DNA of 62,482 nucleotides, filler included. It is 13 parts of 13 records of this genome, joined end to end, with 100 filler letters (N's around TTAATTAATTAA, not from the genome) between each part and the next. Parts side by side here need not be neighbours in the genome. Positions count along the whole stretch, not along the records: positions 20,555 to 23,669 come from SRR7504441_4008; 12 more parts are not named here. One strand, given 5' to 3'. Positions 12,165-23,902 of the stretch are shown here, piece by piece (positions within the stretch are counted from its first letter, which is position 1; each line of letters starts with the position of its first letter). The notes beneath the pieces are model-generated. The model was not told the origin of the DNA. It made no database searches and was given only the letters and a program-made list of their open reading frames with translations. The translations under genes were made by a program, and so were the position numbers.

Positions 12165-12264
12165 NNNNNNNNNNNNNNNNNNNNNNNNNNNNNNNNNNNN
12201 NNNNNNNNTTAATTAATTAANNNNNNNNNNNNNNNNNNNNNNNNNNNNNNNNNNNNNNNNNNNN
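12165..12264. other. Artificial contig spacer, first of 12 (others: 17127-17226, 20455-20554, 23670-23769, 26826-26925, 31570-31669, 35196-35295, 39517-39616, 44535-44634, 50095-50194, 54456-54555, 59169-59268)
   Basis: Identical N-run + TTAATTAATTAA (stops in all six frames) + N-run at each site. Confidence 0.98.
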
Positions 12265-17126: not shown

Positions 17127-17441
17127 NNNNNNNNNNNNNNNNNNNNNNNNNNNNNNNNNNNNNNNNNNNNTTAATTAATTAANNNNNNNNNNNNNNNNNN
17201 NNNNNNNNNNNNNNNNNNNNNNNNNNACTTGTAGGGGTTATTAATTTAAGGCCCGTACCTAGTAGGTATTGTACTGTAGTACGTATACTACCTGGTACCG
17301 GTAGTCTAATAAGACTAGATCTACCGAGTACTAATAGTTCTACGGACCGGACGCACGGCTTTCACCAGCTGAAGCTGAGGCGCCGGAGCAACTCTGCGAG
17401 GAGCCAACCACGAGACAAGGCACGACCTACCGACCGACGGA

Positions 17442-20400
17442 ATGTCCGGCGAGGGATTTTTTCAGCGCCGACGCGCCGGGCTGGACCCGCCCGCTGCCGT
17501 GCTGCTCGACGCCATCACCGAGTCGATCACCGAGCGCGCCCGGGCCACCGGCACCCCGCTGCAGGTCCGCAGCCCAACGGCAACCGTAACTGAATACAGC
17601 TGGGCGCCACTGCGTACTACGCGGCGCTGCTGACCGCGGTCGATCGGCCTGAGTCGCTCGAGGCCGGCCACGCGGACCGGACCGGCCGGTTGCTGCTTCT
17701 GCTGGAGCTGGCGCTCGAAGGGTGGCTGGCGGTAACAGCAACAGTGACGGCGAGGGGGCAGGGTGCCGTCCGCGGTGCTCGGGCAGCCCGCGGTTGGCCG
17801 GTCGAAGCTGATTCCATTGCTCATGGGCGCGGCCACCGCCCACAAGAGCGACCCGGTTCATGGGTCGCTGGGCTAACAACTCACTGCAACGCAGGCGGTG
17901 CTCAGCCGGGTGATCAGCTGTAGCAGGGCCTTGTTCGAGCTGAGCGACCGTCAGGCGGCCGCTAAATACTTTACCGTTGACCGGGGGCAGGTTTGGACGG
18001 CTGACCGAACTCTGCCGGCACTGTACGAAGGCCTGCTCGCGTTGTCGATTGACACCCGGCCCGCAGTAATTGCCGCCGCACCGGTGTCCGTTACAGCGGT
18101 TCAGGTGTGCCAGGGGGCACAGGAGGCTGTGCACGCACTCTGGGGCTCAAACAAGCCACCGGCCGCTGTGGGGACAAGCACCGCCAACTGGCTCGCCGCA
18201 GTGCCTCCCGGTGCTAGTGGTAGCTGTAGCGGAATCGCAGGTGCTCGAGAAGGGGAAGACTGCCACCGGGGGCAACGCCATGGAGCAGCTGGTCCAGGCA
18301 ATTCCCGTTAGATCCGGCAACTTAGATTCTAGATTAGTTGGGTTTAGGCGCTCACACTGCTCCGGCCGCTCTGGTGTCAACTAAAGCCCAAATCAACCGT
18401 CTCGCTGGCCACCCAGGTGCTCGCGCTGCGTGAACGGACCCAGACAGGGTTGCAACTCGCGTGCAACGCCGCTTTGGAGGGTCTGTTCACCGGCTTAAGC
18501 CCCTCAGTGCTGCCAGACTTGACAATCTCCAAGCTGGTGGTCGCCACAACTCAGGTGCCAACATCTTTACAACAGCAGTTTAACTGACTTCTAATCGACA
18601 GTGGCGGCCGAGCGAAGGCTTGGTCAATTTGGACCTTGTGACCGGTTATTTTCGCGTGGTGGCTGCTGGTTTCGGGCTCTGGGCGCAGGTTTTATACTTA
18701 ACTGATATCATGTCTCGATATGGCTCATATACAGCCGGTACGCGGGGGGTTGAGATGCGAACTGTCAGGTCGCCCCGACTGAGTGCGCACAGAGCCTGCC
18801 GTTGGCCGTGGCAGGGATAGCCCGTTACCTCGGCAGCCCGCACCCCAAGGTTAGCCCGTAGCCGACGTGTCATCCAACCGTTGCCGATGGCCAGGTGAGC
18901 GCACAGGCGGTTGGCAAGCTTTCCGACCTGATTCAGTACTTCGGGCCGGCCGGGCTGCCGCAGGGGACACTGGCAGCTGTCGTGACTCAGCTTGAGGCTG
19001 CCATACAAGGCCTCGAGGTGCTCCCCTCTGCAATATAAATACTGGACCGTAACTGTAACCAGCAGGCGGCTCGGCTGGCGTCCGGCCTGGATGTTTACGC
19101 CGCACTGTTCGAGGTGCTGGGCCCAAAATCGCTGCCAGCACTCGGCGAGGTGCCTGATGCTCATGTCGAGATGAGAGACTTGGTCAATCGAGGGCAGGTA
19201 CTGGTGGCAGCAGCAAGGCTGCGTGCGGGGGGCAACGGAAAGCTGCAACGGGCGATCAATCGGCTGGTCGGGTCAGCGATCCGGGCAGTAGGGCCACCAG
19301 CAGTGCTGCAGTTGATTCCACTAGGTTCGCGCGACAAAGCAGAGCAGGTTGACAGTTTTATCCAGGCGTGGACCCAAATGTGGGCGTGACCGACAAGAGT
19401 CAGACATGGTTGATCCCTTTGATGGCCCAGAATGTCCGACGGGCCTCGCTGCTCTGGTGTGCTGCAGTGCTGCTGTCTGCTCAACGCTGCTTAATCAGGT
19501 TTGGATCATCTCTAGTTGCGCTGGCCAATGCTCTGTTGGCAGCCGCTGCGAGCAATGCCGAGGCCGGGCTGGAGGTGTTATATAAGTCTGACTGTGATAC
19601 CAACTATTGTCAGGTGGCAGCGCGCAACATGCAGCTGATTGCACATCAGCTGTGGGGCCTGCTCCCAGCGTTCTGCCGCGACCCAATCGACCTCGTGCAT
19701 GCCTTCCCACACATGGCTAAGGTGTTAACTGTTATCAGTCAAACACCAAATAAATGCCCTCAGGTGCTTGGAACCAAGATTTCGGAGGGCGGCGAGATTT
19801 CAGTGACGGTTTGTGGTTCAATTGCATCTCTGATTGCCACTGCGAGCAAGCAACAGGACCAGCAGCAGGCCCAGGCATCAACAGCTGCAATTGCCGCGTG
19901 CGCCGCTGCTGGCAGCTCGGACTGATGGACTTTAGGTTTGCACCCAACTTCCTGCCGGTGCTGTTTAATTACTTTTTGTCGGCAAGCTCTGCACAGCAGC
20001 AACAACAGCTTGAGGCTGCCAAGCGGTGGCATTTGCGACCGTGTTAAGCACTGACTCCACAAACCACCACTGCAGGTGCATCACAGGATTCTGCGGGATT
20101 ACGCCTAAAGCCACTGTGTCTGAATTTTTCAAAAGCATAGTGCATCGGATCCTCTCGTCACAGGTGCTTGCCACTTATTGTTTGGTTGGGTGAACAGTTT
20201 GATTGAGCAGGAAAGTGCTGCTCCTGCTGCAGGACTTCAATCGGATTTAACTGAACTGGCACTGCTGCTTGTTGGCTCATTGGACTCTGAGGCCGCCGAG
20301 CTCCTCTTCCAAGTCCGACTTATAATAATCCCATTTGATTTGGCCAAGTTAGTCTAATCTCAGGTGGTGGAGCCTATGTTGTTGGAGGCCGAGCCCGTGC

Positions 20401-20454: not shown

Positions 20455-20697
20455 NNNNNNNNNNNNNNNNNNNNNNNNNNNNNNNNNNNNNNNNNNNNTT
20501 AATTAATTAANNNNNNNNNNNNNNNNNNNNNNNNNNNNNNNNNNNNNNNNNNNNCTCGGTGCAGCCGCTTATGGCTGCATCCATCAGCGTCGCGCAGCTA
20601 GATTCCTGCCTCTCCCATGACGGCGTCAGCTGCCTAATCAAGGCCCGACCCGCCATGCTGTGCCCAACCGAAACCTTGGAGAGGCTGGCGATCGGCG

Positions 20698-22825
20698 ATG
20701 GCTGCTCGCACAGTGGAGCTGCCGGACATTCACGCCACTGAGGGGCTCGGGGCGGTGAGTCGGGGCCCGCTCGCTGGTTTGGCCCGGTCTCTCACAGCTT
20801 GCCGGGCGCAGGCGCTGGCCCCGCACTGCCGGCCCGGGGACGTGATCTTCCTGATCGGAGACCTCGGCGCCGGCAAGACCTCCCTCTCACGGGGGCTGAT
20901 CCGCCAGTTCTTCGGAAATCCGACGCTAGACGTGCCCAGCCCGTCATACCTGCTCCAGTTCACCTACCGCGACGAGGGCAGCGAGCAGGGGGCGCCAGCC
21001 GAGGGCCAAGGGATGGAATTCAGAGCAGGCCGGTTCGCCAGTCTGCCGGGGGTGGCGGTGGGTCCGGCGGGCGGCGGCGGGCGGACTGGGGGGCAGGTGC
21101 AGCACCTCGACCTGTATCGGCTCAAGCCGGGCCGGATTGCGGGGCTGGTGGATTTTGATAGGATCTGGCGGGAGGACATCTCGCTGGTCGAGTGGCCCGA
21201 CCGACTCGGCGACCAGCTCAGCTCGGCCAGCCACCCGGCCCGGCTCGAGATCACCTTGTCTGGGAGCGGGCCGCAGGGCGGCAGCCGGAGGGCCGAGCTG
21301 AGAGCCGTGGGCGACCGGTGGACCGAGTTGCTCCGCACACTGGACCTGTCGCAGCCGGCGGCGGCACAAGGGTCAGGCAATACAGGGGCCGCCCCGATGG
21401 CGCCGTTGAATGTGGCCCAGCCTGAAGCCCTGCTCTCGGAGGATAAGCTGGAGAAACTGGTGGTGCTCGGTATTGAATCCAGCTGCGACGACACGGGCGC
21501 GGCTGTGGTCCGAGCCGACGGCACAATCTTGGGCGAGGCACTGGCTTCGCAGGCGGCCGTGCACGAGCAGTGGGGCGGCGTGGTGCCGAATCTAGCCAGG
21601 GAGGCCCACGCCCAGGCGATAGATGCCACGGTCGAGCAGGCAATCAGCAAGGCTGGACTGACGCACGCTGACATCGACGCTGTGGCCGTCACAGTGGGCC
21701 CCGGCCTGGCCCCATGCTTGCAGGTCGGCGTGGGCAAGGCGTATCAGATTGCGGCCGAGCATCAGATCCCGATTGTGCGGGTGCACCACATGGAGGCGCA
21801 CGCGATGATCACGCGGCTGCCTGCTGCGGGCCGGGCTACCCCTGACTTCCCATACGCGACGGTGCTCGTGAGTGGAGGGCATAATATGGTGCTGCTCACC
21901 ACCAAGATCGGAGAGCACTGCATTCTAGGGAGCACGCTGGACGACTCGATCGGCGAGTCGTTTGACAAAACTGCCCGTCTGTTAGGGATCACGCAAGTCC
22001 CAGGAGGGCCTCACCTAGAGAAGCTCGCAACTTCTGGCGACCCTGCGGCCTACACACTACCCAAGCCGCTGTCCAACAGCAAGGATCCAAACCTGCGCAA
22101 AGGCTGCGACTTTTCGTTCTCTGGGCTCAAAACCTCGACAAGGACGTTGATAGAAAAGGAGCTGCGGCCTGAGCTGGTGAGCCATGCCCTGCCCTTGTGC
22201 CTAATCGTGTTGTGCAGTCCGGGGAGGCTCGGGAGATAGTGCGCGCCAATCTAGCGGCAAGCTTCCAGGCCGCCGCTGTCGGCCATTTGGTCGAGCGTGT
22301 GGATAGAGCAATGGTGTGGGTGCTGGAGGTGTGGCAGATGATTCTAGTTTTGATTTGACTCGTGGCGGCCAGGCGCGTCCTGAATCCAAGGCAATGATTG
22401 TGGCCGGGGGCGTGGCTGCCAACAAGCTGGTCCGGTCTGAGCTGACCCGAGTGGCGGCCAAGTATGGGCTGGAGATGCTGGTCCCCCCTGGCCGGCTCTG
22501 TGTGGACAACGGCGTGATGGTGGCATGGACCGGAATAGAACGGTTGAAGATCGGCCTCGGCGAGAAGCCTCCATCGAGCGTGGAGAAGGCTGGGCTGTTC
22601 ACCGAGGTGTGTCGACGCTTGCCCAGGGTTGTTCAGGTGACTGGCCAGGTGAGGCCGCGGTGGGTGCTGGGCCCCCGTGATGCAAGGAGCCAACCTGGTA
22701 ATCGGGAAAAGCCAATATCTAAGAAGCAAGAACAAAAGCGAAAGGCTGCAGAAGACGCCCAAGAGGCAGCGAAAGTGGGTACAAAGCGTGGAAGGGACCC
22801 ACAGACAGCTAATGAGACAAAGTGA
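20698..22825 (+). CDS. TsaE (YjeE ATPase) - TsaD/Qri7 (t6A carbamoyltransferase) fusion, about 5 mini-introns
   Basis: TsaE: GDVIFLIGDLGAGKT, VPSPSY, HLDLYRL, LVEWPDRL. TsaD: LGIESSCDDT, GGVVP..A...H, TVGPGL, HHMEAH, VSGGH, DDSIGESFDK, DFSFSGLKT, AGGVAAN, CVDNGVM. Both lie in one continuous frame. Confidence 0.9.
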
Positions 22826-23902
22826 GGTGATTAATCAGTGTGCTGCATAGCTATTAACCAATTTAATTATACGATAACTAAAACTAATAAAGGGAAACTC
22901 GGTTGGATGAAATGCTCAATCCAATACAGATGATCTGAAGTGTAATTGGTTACTACTGCTGGTTGACCCTTTAGTGCCGCTCAACAGAAATTGTTAAGAA
23001 ATTGTAATCATATTCATGTACGAAATACAACATGTAATTGTTAGTTCGGACTCTCTAACTACCACCGCGCATTGTGCTCATTGTGGTCATGCCTACATGA
23101 CATTGCTAACATGCCGGCAAATGACTCATCAATCTTCAACCGGCTAAGATGCGTTGGGTGACGTTCATGCCATTTGATCTCCATTCGTATGATCTAGAAC
23201 CCCCTGGCTGTCCTTTGGCATGCACGCCCTATCGTCCAGCCGAACCCCCGGTAGTGCCGCCGCCATTGCCTCCACATCGACATATCCTGAATGTTCCCCT
23301 TCAATCTGTTGGACAAGGTCTGGTGGTCGAGGCAGTCCGCCAACTCCCATATCGCTCCAAGTAGGCATCTGCTGTGCCTCCAGGGATGCTGGGGGCGAGG
23401 TCGTGTCCACAATCACACTCATTTGCGGCAAGGCAGGCTCGTCCCTGACCGTGCTAGGTAGTGGTGCCCTGACAGTTCTTACCTTGTCCTTTCTTTTGGT
23501 TCTATTCTGTGGAGTAGGCGGATTATGGAGCTGTTGTACTGGTAGGGTCCCGTTGGGGTTTCCATTTGGGTAGGGCCCAGGCACTAGCCCGGCCGGAAGC
23601 TGCTGTCCAGGAGGACATGGCATCGCTGGTTCCGGAGGGGACATGCCACTGTAGCCGACGTAGCCACCANNNNNNNNNNNNNNNNNNNNNNNNNNNNNNN
23701 NNNNNNNNNNNNNTTAATTAATTAANNNNNNNNNNNNNNNNNNNNNNNNNNNNNNNNNNNNNNNNNNNNACCATAAATTATGCATATGCATATGCATGCT
23801 GTACAACAAATGACTGAATTACGTCTAGTCGTCAACCCATGTGCATACACCCCGCGATACTTGCTTCCTCGGCAAAGAGGATTCGGACACTTCGGAGCAT
23901 GC

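What the first reader, a model, noticed from the sequence alone, without database searches (positions are those of the whole stretch)
20698..22825. Eukaryotic single-chain TsaE-TsaD fusion for t6A tRNA modification
A complete TsaE ATPase domain runs in frame, via a ~45-aa linker with no stop, into a complete bacterial/mitochondrial-type TsaD. Mini-introns in both halves show it is a nuclear gene, not contamination. In the established pathways, bacteria use separate TsaB+TsaD+TsaE, mitochondria use Qri7/OSGEPL1 without TsaE, and the cytosol uses KEOPS. A tethered TsaE may reset a homodimeric TsaD without TsaB, giving an intermediate architecture of the pathway. No clear N-terminal transit peptide is visible, and the C-terminus has a basic NLS-like tail (KKQEQKRK, TKRGR), so localisation is open.
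Basis: partly seen in the sequence, partly recalled or inferred. Interest (0 to 1): 0.8.

Follow-up and report, generated by a model that had tools for sequence, protein, structure and literature searches.

The report
Protist TsaE-TsaD fusion gene for t6A
A marine protist gene joins the bacterial-type helper ATPase TsaE to the tRNA-modifying enzyme TsaD in one protein, an arrangement that proves common among protists but that we found described in no paper.

Summary
Window 20698-22825 (+) is one gene. It encodes an N-terminal TsaE ATPase, a 38-residue linker, a bacterial-type TsaD and a basic tail. I find five GT..AG mini-introns of 39-57 nt, two in the TsaE part and three in the TsaD part, giving a 634-residue product collinear with relatives.

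The fusion is not unique. 86 of the 120 best database clusters carry both domains. Named members come from diplonemids (closest, 56-59%), euglenids, dinoflagellates, Amoebophrya, Perkinsus, chromerids, a haptophyte, a green alga and Picozoa. Many are complete ORFs from transcriptomes, so relatives make one mRNA.

Catalytic motifs of both domains are invariant in 48 fused proteins. The TsaE parts form one eukaryotic clade with stand-alone red-algal TsaE; the nearest named prokaryotes are Alphaproteobacteria.

Most fused proteins have no N-terminal presequence, whereas stand-alone eukaryotic TsaE proteins do, so localisation is open.

Eight t6A-related literature searches found no description of a eukaryotic TsaE or of this fusion.

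Not tested: TsaB independence, dimerisation, and transcript continuity in this organism.

Verdict: a real, new variant of a known system, widespread but uncharacterised. Interest 0.6.

The parts
20698..20754 (+). Exon 1: start codon and the first 19 residues. The TsaE domain begins at once, with no presequence.
   Evidence: In-frame TAA at 20635-20637 upstream. Relatives start at the same place.
20755..20811 (+). Intron 1, 57 nt, GTGAGT..GCGCAG, in frame and without a stop
   Evidence: Relatives lack these 19 residues. A polyA-RNA contig starts matching at 20811 after 2 unmatched letters, as expected for a spliced copy.
20812..21057 (+). Exon 2: TsaE Walker A (GDLGAGKT, 20857-20880), SPSY motif (20938-20949) and a low-complexity insert
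21058..21096 (+).
   Evidence: It would be a 13-residue insert absent from all relatives. The same RNA contig stops matching at 21060 with 6 letters left over, which fits a spliced junction exactly.
21097..22176 (+). Exon 3: rest of TsaE (HLDLYR 21103-21120, EWP 21190-21198, domain end about 21342), 38-residue linker (21343-21456), and the first two thirds of TsaD from 21457 (HHMEAH 21784-21801, SGGH 21871-21882)
22177..22217 (+). Intron 3, 41 nt, GTGAGC..GTGCAG; shifts the frame
   Evidence: tblastn frame change and alignment to relatives
22218..22328 (+). Exon 4: middle part of TsaD
22329..22372 (+). Intron 4, 44 nt, GTGTGG..GGCCAG; shifts the frame
22373..22606 (+). Exon 5: C-terminal part of TsaD (GGVAAN 22406-22423, DNGVM 22505-22519)
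22607..22648 (+). Intron 5, 42 nt, GTGTGT..GGCCAG, in frame
   Evidence: It would be a 14-residue insert absent from relatives just before the conserved RPRW. There is no RNA evidence.
22649..22825 (+). Exon 6: end of TsaD (RPRW 22652-22663), 53-residue basic tail, TGA stop at 22823-22825
   Evidence: A tail of 31-56 residues with 7-14 K/R is found in most relatives where the motif was located.

Best explanation
This is a real, intron-bearing nuclear gene of a marine protist, most likely a diplonemid relative. It encodes a single polypeptide with two working parts.

The C-terminal part is a bacterial-type TsaD. TsaD is the metal-dependent transferase that moves the threonylcarbamoyl group from TC-AMP onto A37 of ANN-decoding tRNAs to make t6A. 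The N-terminal part is TsaE, the P-loop ATPase that in bacteria docks over the TsaD active site, competes with tRNA, and by ATP hydrolysis resets TsaD for further turnovers. Here the two are tethered by a disordered linker of about 38 residues, so the reset factor is always present at 1:1.

The gene belongs to one family of such fusions that is spread over many protist lineages. Its TsaE part descends from a single eukaryotic TsaE lineage whose nearest named prokaryotic relatives are Alphaproteobacteria.

Shown here: the gene structure, both domains, motif conservation, the family's spread and the clade structure.

Inferred, not shown: t6A activity; that TsaE acts on the attached or a partner TsaD; that a TsaD-TsaD dimer replaces TsaB; and the compartment. 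The protein lacks a classical N-terminal presequence, so it is either imported by another route or works outside organelles.
For: Domains. TsaE and TsaD lie in one frame. The NCBIfam TsaD equivalog gives 253 bits on the partial exon and 330.9 bits against a cut-off of 296.1 for the orthologue P0003. All 48 of 48 fused proteins match both the TsaD and the TsaE NCBIfam models.

Gene model. The 634-residue product is collinear with relatives. All five introns are GT..AG at the places where relatives have no residues.

Motifs. Walker A, SPxY, HxDxYR, EW, HxxxH, SGGH and DNG are present in the window's product. They are invariant in 48 fused proteins.

Spread. 86 of 120 listed clusters have both Pfam domains. 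Named taxa are given. Many members are complete ORFs from transcriptome assemblies, so relatives make one mRNA.

Trees. All 95 fused or fragment TsaE parts lie on one side of a branch (98, FastTree, 292 rows). A 100-supported split puts 24 fused, 2 red-algal and 5 unnamed short TsaE against 56 bacterial rows (IQ-TREE quick, 87 rows). In the TsaD tree, 82 fused plus 7 mostly truncated rows separate at 99 from 19 TsaD-only rows.

Prokaryotic relatives. 71 of the 79 loci that entered the tree are Alphaproteobacteria by class. The named bacterial hits in an independent search are Rhodospirillaceae, Sediminicoccus and Rubritepida.

Fold. The AlphaFold model of P0003 has pLDDT 83.9 and pTM 0.69, with two folded domains. 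The TsaE insert (78-101), linker (213-235) and tail (618-655) are disordered.

Mechanism of the parts. TsaE sits at the TsaD active-site entrance, excludes tRNA, and holds ATP between TsaE and TsaD (PMC6009658, passages). Its ATPase allows multiple turnovers (PMC10275265, passage).
Against: No transcript of this organism was seen crossing the linker or any intron. Only 7 short contig pieces from 4 runs lay on the gene.

The TsaE equivalog cut-off of NCBIfam is narrowly missed: 59.3 against 60.1 bits for P0003, and 49.7 for the unspliced window ORF. A lineage-specific insert splits the domain.

In bacteria TsaE does not bind TsaD homodimers, so action without TsaB would need something new. Presence or absence of TsaB, KEOPS, Sua5 and a separate Qri7 could not be checked, because no genome is held.

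Diplonemid mitochondria are presumed to import all their tRNAs (PMC12699882, passage). This leaves the substrate of an organellar enzyme unclear.

The alphaproteobacterial affinity has no outgroup from other phyla. The locus scan was also seeded by an alignment that held two alphaproteobacterial rows.
Confidence: 0.75

Rival explanations
1. The fused enzyme is an organellar (mitochondrial) t6A synthase. It would be the orthologue of Qri7/OSGEPL1 that kept its TsaE, imported by a non-classical signal.
For: The TsaD is of bacterial type and the TsaE of alphaproteobacterial type. Qri7 and its relatives are mitochondrial in yeast and worm (PMC2760799, passages). Stand-alone eukaryotic TsaE proteins carry presequence-like extensions in 6 of 6 cases, so the lineage was organellar at some time. 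One database record for Perkinsus is labelled 'mitochondrial' by its source.
Against: 62 of 79 complete fused proteins have at most 15 residues before the TsaE domain. The window's N-terminus has E and D within its first 10 residues.

The held parts of the in-silico Diplonema mitoproteome tables contain no entry with the family's names or five invariant motifs. One file was cut when stored.

The Euglena orthologue's id is absent from the supplement file of the 1,786-protein Euglena mitochondrial proteome.

Diplonemid mitochondria are presumed to use imported, cytosolic-type tRNAs.
Confidence: 0.4
2. The fused enzyme works in the cytosol or nucleus as a second, bacterial-type t6A (or related carbamoyl-transfer) system beside KEOPS.
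For: Most of the family lacks a presequence, while stand-alone TsaE and TsaD-only algal relatives have one. The family has a conserved basic C-terminal tail. The orthologues are missing from the mitochondrial lists that could be searched.
Against: The basic tail also occurs on presequence-bearing TsaD-only proteins, so it is more likely an RNA-binding element than a nuclear signal. No localisation data exist. The need for a second cytosolic system is unexplained. Presence of KEOPS in these taxa was not tested.
Confidence: 0.4
3. The fusion is an artefact: two neighbouring genes read through by chance, an assembly chimera, or bacterial contamination.
For: The window is stitched from short pieces, and the gene's piece is only 3.1 kb. 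No RNA read of this organism crosses the linker.
Against: One uninterrupted exon of 360 codons, 21097-22176, spans the end of TsaE, the linker and two thirds of TsaD. The same architecture is found in 86 of 120 clusters, including complete transcriptome ORFs from several diplonemids. Spliceosomal introns rule out a bacterial source.
Confidence: 0.03

Closest known systems
Bacterial TsaB-TsaD-TsaE threonylcarbamoyl-transfer complex (E. coli YeaZ/YgjD/YjeE; T. maritima structures 6N9A, 6S84)
   Same: The same two protein families with the same catalytic motifs. The TsaD part scores best against Salmonella and E. coli TsaD (1e-53 to 1e-70). The TsaE part matches HI0065, B. subtilis and T. maritima TsaE.
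   Different: Here TsaE and TsaD are one chain in a eukaryotic nuclear gene. TsaE carries a disordered insert between SPxY and HxDxYR, and TsaD has a basic tail. A TsaB partner is unknown. In bacteria TsaE needs the TsaB-TsaD heterodimer.
Mitochondrial Qri7 / OSGEPL1 (TsaD orthologue that works alone as a homodimer)
   Same: A eukaryotic, nucleus-encoded TsaD of bacterial descent. The match to yeast Qri7 structures is 1e-29 to 1e-40.
   Different: Qri7 has a targeting presequence and no TsaE. [quoted passage not shown] The window's protein has TsaE and no presequence.
Archaeal Kae1-Bud32 fusion (MJ1130, HVO_1895)
   Same: A single chain joining the TsaD-family transferase to its regulatory ATPase or kinase (PMC4615747, passages).
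   Different: The ATPase is unrelated (Bud32, not TsaE), the domain order is reversed, and it belongs to the KEOPS system.
Stand-alone eukaryotic TsaE of red algae (Cyanidioschyzon merolae, Cyanidiococcus)
   Same: It lies in the same eukaryotic TsaE clade (100 support), with 36% identity to the diplonemid TsaE part.
   Different: It is not fused, and it carries an N-terminal extension of about 50 residues that is basic and poor in acidic residues.

Membership tests
TsaE / YjeE (PF02367, TIGR00150) | Profile match above the curated cut-off | tested here: inconclusive
   Pfam is met: 67.4 bits against 26.6 for the window ORF, and 76 bits for P0003. The NCBIfam equivalog is narrowly missed: 49.7 bits for the unspliced window ORF and 59.3 for P0003, against 60.1.
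TsaE / YjeE (PF02367, TIGR00150) | P-loop Walker A plus the SPT[FY], HxDxYR and EW motifs | tested here: met
   All are present in the window's product and invariant in 48 fused proteins. The motif list itself is partly recalled. Walker A and SPTFT are named in PMC6009658.
TsaE / YjeE (PF02367, TIGR00150) | ATPase activity stimulated by TsaB-TsaD | not testable with these tools
   Needs biochemistry.
TsaD / YgjD (PF00814, TIGR03723) | Profile match above the curated cut-off | tested here: met
   Pfam gives 195.7 bits against 24.8 on the partial exon. The NCBIfam equivalog gives 330.9 bits against 296.1 for the orthologue P0003. The window's partial exon alone gives 253 bits. The spliced product could not be submitted.
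TsaD / YgjD (PF00814, TIGR03723) | Metal-binding HxxxH and C-terminal D (DNG), plus the SGGH and GGVAAN motifs | tested here: met
Bacterial TsaBDE system | A separate TsaB (YeaZ) partner forming the heterodimer that TsaE binds | not testable with these tools
   No genome is held for the window. No way was found to search protist proteomes for TsaB.
Qri7 / OSGEPL1 type (mitochondrial, stand-alone) | N-terminal mitochondrial presequence | tested here: not met
   The TsaE domain starts within the first 10 residues, and the window's first 10 residues include E and D. 62 of 79 complete relatives likewise lack an extension. No targeting predictor was available.
Qri7 / OSGEPL1 type (mitochondrial, stand-alone) | Works without TsaE | tested here: not met
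   TsaE is fused and its motifs are conserved.
Qri7 / OSGEPL1 type (mitochondrial, stand-alone) | Homodimer through the N-terminal helix bundle | not tested
   The complex job was accepted but not folded.

The most novel reading that the evidence does not exclude
Eukaryotes inherited TsaE along with TsaD from the mitochondrial ancestor, so the textbook 'Qri7 alone' pathway is a derived state of animals, fungi and plants. In many protists the two fused into a TsaB-independent, self-resetting t6A synthase. That enzyme has lost its presequence and now works outside the organelle, as a second, bacterial-type t6A or related carbamoyl-transfer system beside KEOPS.
Probability: 0.15. Interest if true: 0.85.

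Novelty: new variant of a known kind. Interest (0 to 1): 0.6.

Why it matters
Reviews and primary papers on t6A treat TsaB and TsaE as bacteria-specific and describe three layouts: bacterial TsaBDE, KEOPS, and mitochondrial Qri7 alone (passages).

A conserved TsaE, fused to TsaD in many protist lineages and free-standing with a presequence in red algae, adds a fourth layout. It also bears on how the mitochondrial pathway was simplified.

The fusion is a natural 1:1 tether of the enzyme and its reset ATPase. That could help mechanistic work on why TsaD needs resetting and whether TsaB is dispensable.

The host lineages include coral symbionts, parasites (Perkinsus, Amoebophrya) and abundant marine heterotrophs. 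The enzyme has no counterpart in animals.

Tried and rejected
Own genome. None is held, so TsaB, Qri7, KEOPS and Sua5 could not be sought.

Earlier findings.

Complex prediction. I submitted two TsaD parts plus one TsaE part of P0003, cut from alignment A2. The queue was full, and one search was not sent on because it came within the 120-second wait. The job was accepted and returned NOT FOLDED. There is therefore no result on docking or dimerisation.

RNA evidence. All 24 runs hold only a small share, 0.05-0.09. The 4 runs laid gave 7 short pieces, none across the linker or with a listed joint. The fit of one 258-nt contig to exon 2 rests on arithmetic over coordinates, not on letters seen.

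ESM Atlas gave no usable hit.

Named control genomes of the genome search gave a tally but no sequences, so I could not add non-alphaproteobacterial outgroups.

Amoebophrya. I considered arguing from its reported lack of mtDNA. The claim is contested (search listing only: John 2019 against Kayal and Smith 2021), so I dropped it.

Oyster hit. I took P0087, labelled Magallana gigas, as evidence of closeness to animal OSGEPL1. I rejected this because it nests at 100 support inside an algal fused clade and is probably a contaminant or truncated model.

Mitochondrial proteome tables. Nothing was found in the Euglena table or the Diplonema tables. The 'tsad' and 'tsae' hits are letters inside unrelated protein sequences. 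One Diplonema file was cut when stored, so absence is weak.

The third homology search and the representative-library search were not used.

Full report
**What is in the sequence**

From the ATG at 20698, which follows an in-frame TAA at 20635-20637, one frame stays open to 22176. Its translation matches Pfam TsaE (PF02367, E 1.5e-18, 67.4 bits, cut-off 26.6) and Pfam TsaD (PF00814, E 1.6e-57) in the same frame. NCBIfam gives the bacterial TsaD equivalog TIGR03723 as the best model (253 bits on this partial piece) and the TsaE model TIGR00150 (49.7 bits). The missing C-terminal third of TsaD lies in two other frames downstream.

**Gene model**

tblastn with six full-length relatives, followed by a multiple alignment, places the exon borders. 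A 13-residue stretch peculiar to the window turned out to be a further in-frame intron.

- Exons: 20698-20754, 20812-21057, 21097-22176, 22218-22328, 22373-22606 and 22649-22825.
- Introns: 57, 39, 41, 44 and 42 nt. All begin GTG and end CAG.
- Product: 634 residues, collinear with relatives from end to end.
- Three introns are in frame and free of stops. This is why the raw ORF looks continuous.

**Direct RNA support is thin**

All 24 public runs found hold only 5-9% of the sampled words. The four runs laid gave seven short contig pieces.

One 258-letter contig from a polyA metatranscriptome lies on 20811-21060 as its letters 3-252. That is exactly what a spliced copy would give: 3 letters of exon 1, the 246 of exon 2 and 9 letters of exon 3. 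The flanking bases that happen to be shared explain the one and three extra matched letters. I did not see the overhanging letters, so this is a hint only.

RNA contigs cover parts of both the TsaE and the TsaD region. None crosses the linker.

**Setting**

The window is not one stretch of chromosome. Pairs of 44 N around TTAATTAATTAA recur every 3-5 kb, so it is a chain of about 13 short pieces. The gene lies on the piece 20555-23669.

Large ORFs on other pieces are ordinary eukaryotic genes: MutS, HSP90, RhoGEF, eIF4G, an RFC1-like protein and RRP12. They say nothing about linkage.

The case for a eukaryotic origin of this piece rests on its introns and on its relatives.

**Relatives**

A search with the 493-residue ORF found 7934 proteins at E 0.001 or better among 8000 scored. 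Of the 120 listed, 86 carry both Pfam domains.

The closest are complete transcriptome ORFs of three diplonemids:
- Artemidia motanka, 59% identity.
- Namystynia karyoxenos, 57%.
- A record prefixed Hpha, 56%. I read this as Hemistasia from memory.

Other named members:
- Lacrimia lanifica, a diplonemid.
- Euglena gracilis and Ploeotia vitrea, euglenids.
- Symbiodinium, a record prefixed symbB, Effrenium, Polykrikos and an unnamed dinoflagellate.
- Two Amoebophrya strains.
- Perkinsus olseni.
- Vitrella and Chromera, chromerids.
- Prymnesium parvum, a haptophyte.
- Tetradesmus obliquus, a green alga.
- A Picozoa fragment.

So the fusion is widespread. In relatives it is carried on one mRNA.

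**Conservation**

In an alignment of 48 fused proteins the following are invariant: the Walker A glycines and lysine, SP of the SPxY motif, H, D and R of HxDxYR, EWP, HHMExH, SGGH, GGVA.N and DNG. The window's product has them all.

All 48 match the NCBIfam TsaD and TsaE models. P0003 passes the TsaD equivalog cut-off (330.9 against 296.1 bits) and misses the TsaE one by 0.8 bit. A disordered insert splits the TsaE domain.

An AlphaFold model of P0003 built on that alignment has pLDDT 83.9 and pTM 0.69. It shows two folded domains, with low confidence only in the TsaE insert (78-101), the linker (213-235) and the tail (618-655).

Among solved structures the TsaD part is nearest to Salmonella and E. 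coli TsaD, then T. maritima TsaD, then yeast Qri7. The TsaE part matches HI0065 and B. subtilis TsaE.

**Descent**

A search with the TsaE part of P0002 among short proteins found, in order:
- Fragments of fusions.
- Stand-alone TsaE of the red algae Cyanidioschyzon and Cyanidiococcus, at 36% identity.
- Bacterial TsaE. Those with names are Alphaproteobacteria: Rhodospirillaceae bacterium LM-1, Sediminicoccus rosea and Rubritepida.

A scan of one genome per prokaryotic species kept 80 loci. Of the 79 that entered the tree, 71 are Alphaproteobacteria by class, 6 are unclassed, one is labelled Flavobacteriia and one Gammaproteobacteria.

Two caveats apply. The scan's patterns came from an alignment that included two alphaproteobacterial rows. 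No outgroup from other phyla was available.

Tree results:
- All 95 fused or fragment TsaE parts fall on one side of a branch (98).
- A 100-supported split separates 24 fused, 2 red-algal and 5 unnamed short TsaE from 56 bacterial rows.
- On the TsaD side, 82 fused rows plus 7 TsaD-only rows separate at 99 from 19 TsaD-only proteins of prasinophyte type. Of the 7, three lack a start methionine and several begin in the linker.

I infer one eukaryotic TsaE lineage, within which fusion to TsaD arose once or few times.

**Localisation**

Of 79 complete fused proteins in which Walker A was found, 62 have at most 15 residues before the TsaE domain. Of the 17 with more, four carry a HIT domain there, and most of the rest are not presequence-like.

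By contrast, all six stand-alone TsaE of the eukaryotic clade have extensions of 43-69 residues with 7-11 K/R and 0-4 D/E. The TsaD-only algal group has arginine-, alanine- and serine-rich extensions of about 50-130 residues.

The basic tail is shared by fused and presequence-bearing TsaD-only proteins. I therefore read it as a likely RNA-binding element rather than a nuclear signal.

Three further points bear on the compartment:
- The Euglena orthologue's id does not occur in the supplement file of the Euglena mitochondrial proteome.
- The held parts of the Diplonema in-silico mitoproteome tables contain neither the family's names nor five of its invariant motifs. One file was cut when stored.
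- That paper also states that Diplonema mitochondria are presumed to use imported tRNAs.

None of this is decisive. I leave organellar and non-organellar sites at about equal odds.

**Mechanism**

In the T. maritima complex, TsaE sits at the entrance of the TsaD active site, touches both TsaB and TsaD, excludes tRNA, and holds the nucleotide between TsaE and TsaD. [quoted passage not shown] Its ATPase permits multiple turnovers (PMC10275265, passage).

By inference the fused protein makes t6A with a built-in reset ATPase. The tether may make up for weak binding if TsaB is absent.

Whether TsaB is absent, and whether the TsaD parts dimerise as Qri7 does, was not tested. The complex job was not folded.

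**Literature**

Eight t6A-related searches turned up no description of a eukaryotic TsaE or of a TsaE-TsaD fusion. I read passages of:
- The 2022 review (PMC9654439).
- Thiaville et al. (PMC4615747).
- The TsaN paper (PMC10484737).
- Oberto et al. (PMC2760799).
- Wan et al. (PMC3695523).

These papers call YeaZ and YjeE bacteria-specific, or undetectable in yeast and worm. Subscription journals and bioRxiv supplements were not searchable.

**Verdict**

The gene is a real feature and a member of a widespread but apparently undescribed protist family. It is a new variant of the t6A machinery rather than a new kind of system.

Noticed in passing
window 12165-12264, 17127-17226, 20455-20554, 23670-23769 and eight more places: Pairs of 44 N around TTAATTAATTAA recur every 3-5 kb. 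The window is a chain of about 13 short assembly pieces, so gene order across spacers carries no meaning.
   Followed up: partly
P0244 (Chromera velia), P0090/P0097 (Tetradesmus obliquus), P0077, P0083: Triple fusions HIT-TsaE-TsaD: a histidine-triad nucleotide-hydrolase domain sits in front of TsaE. This may link hydrolysis of an adenylate such as TC-AMP to the transferase.
   Followed up: partly
P0133 (Cyanidioschyzon merolae), P0135 (Cyanidiococcus), P0136, P0143, P0149, P0159: Stand-alone eukaryotic TsaE proteins with presequence-like N-terminal extensions of 43-69 residues. They lie in the same clade as the fused TsaE parts.
   Followed up: partly
P0087 (labelled Magallana gigas): This oyster-labelled TsaD nests at 100 support inside a clade of fused proteins that neighbours the haptophyte Prymnesium. 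It is probably contamination or a truncated model in the oyster record.
   Followed up: no
window 20950-21057 and relatives: A disordered, low-complexity insert of variable length sits between the SPxY and HxDxYR motifs of TsaE in most fused proteins. It is absent from a metagenomic group of about 610 residues.
   Followed up: no
G001 (genome of locus L005), contig 1, 4160530-4160913: In this alphaproteobacterial genome the TsaE match lies in an open frame of 1422 residues. This may be a fusion or merely a long open frame in GC-rich DNA.
   Followed up: no
window 19353-19922 (+), 23165-23713 (-): An RRP12 HEAT-repeat fragment lies on the preceding piece. On the gene's own piece, a convergent proline-rich ORF without a Pfam match is cut by the spacer.
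   Followed up: no
P0076 (Euglena gracilis), residues 1-143: The Euglena orthologue has a 143-residue N-terminal extension with a hydrophobic stretch, unlike the diplonemid proteins. It could be a targeting or anchoring region.
   Followed up: no
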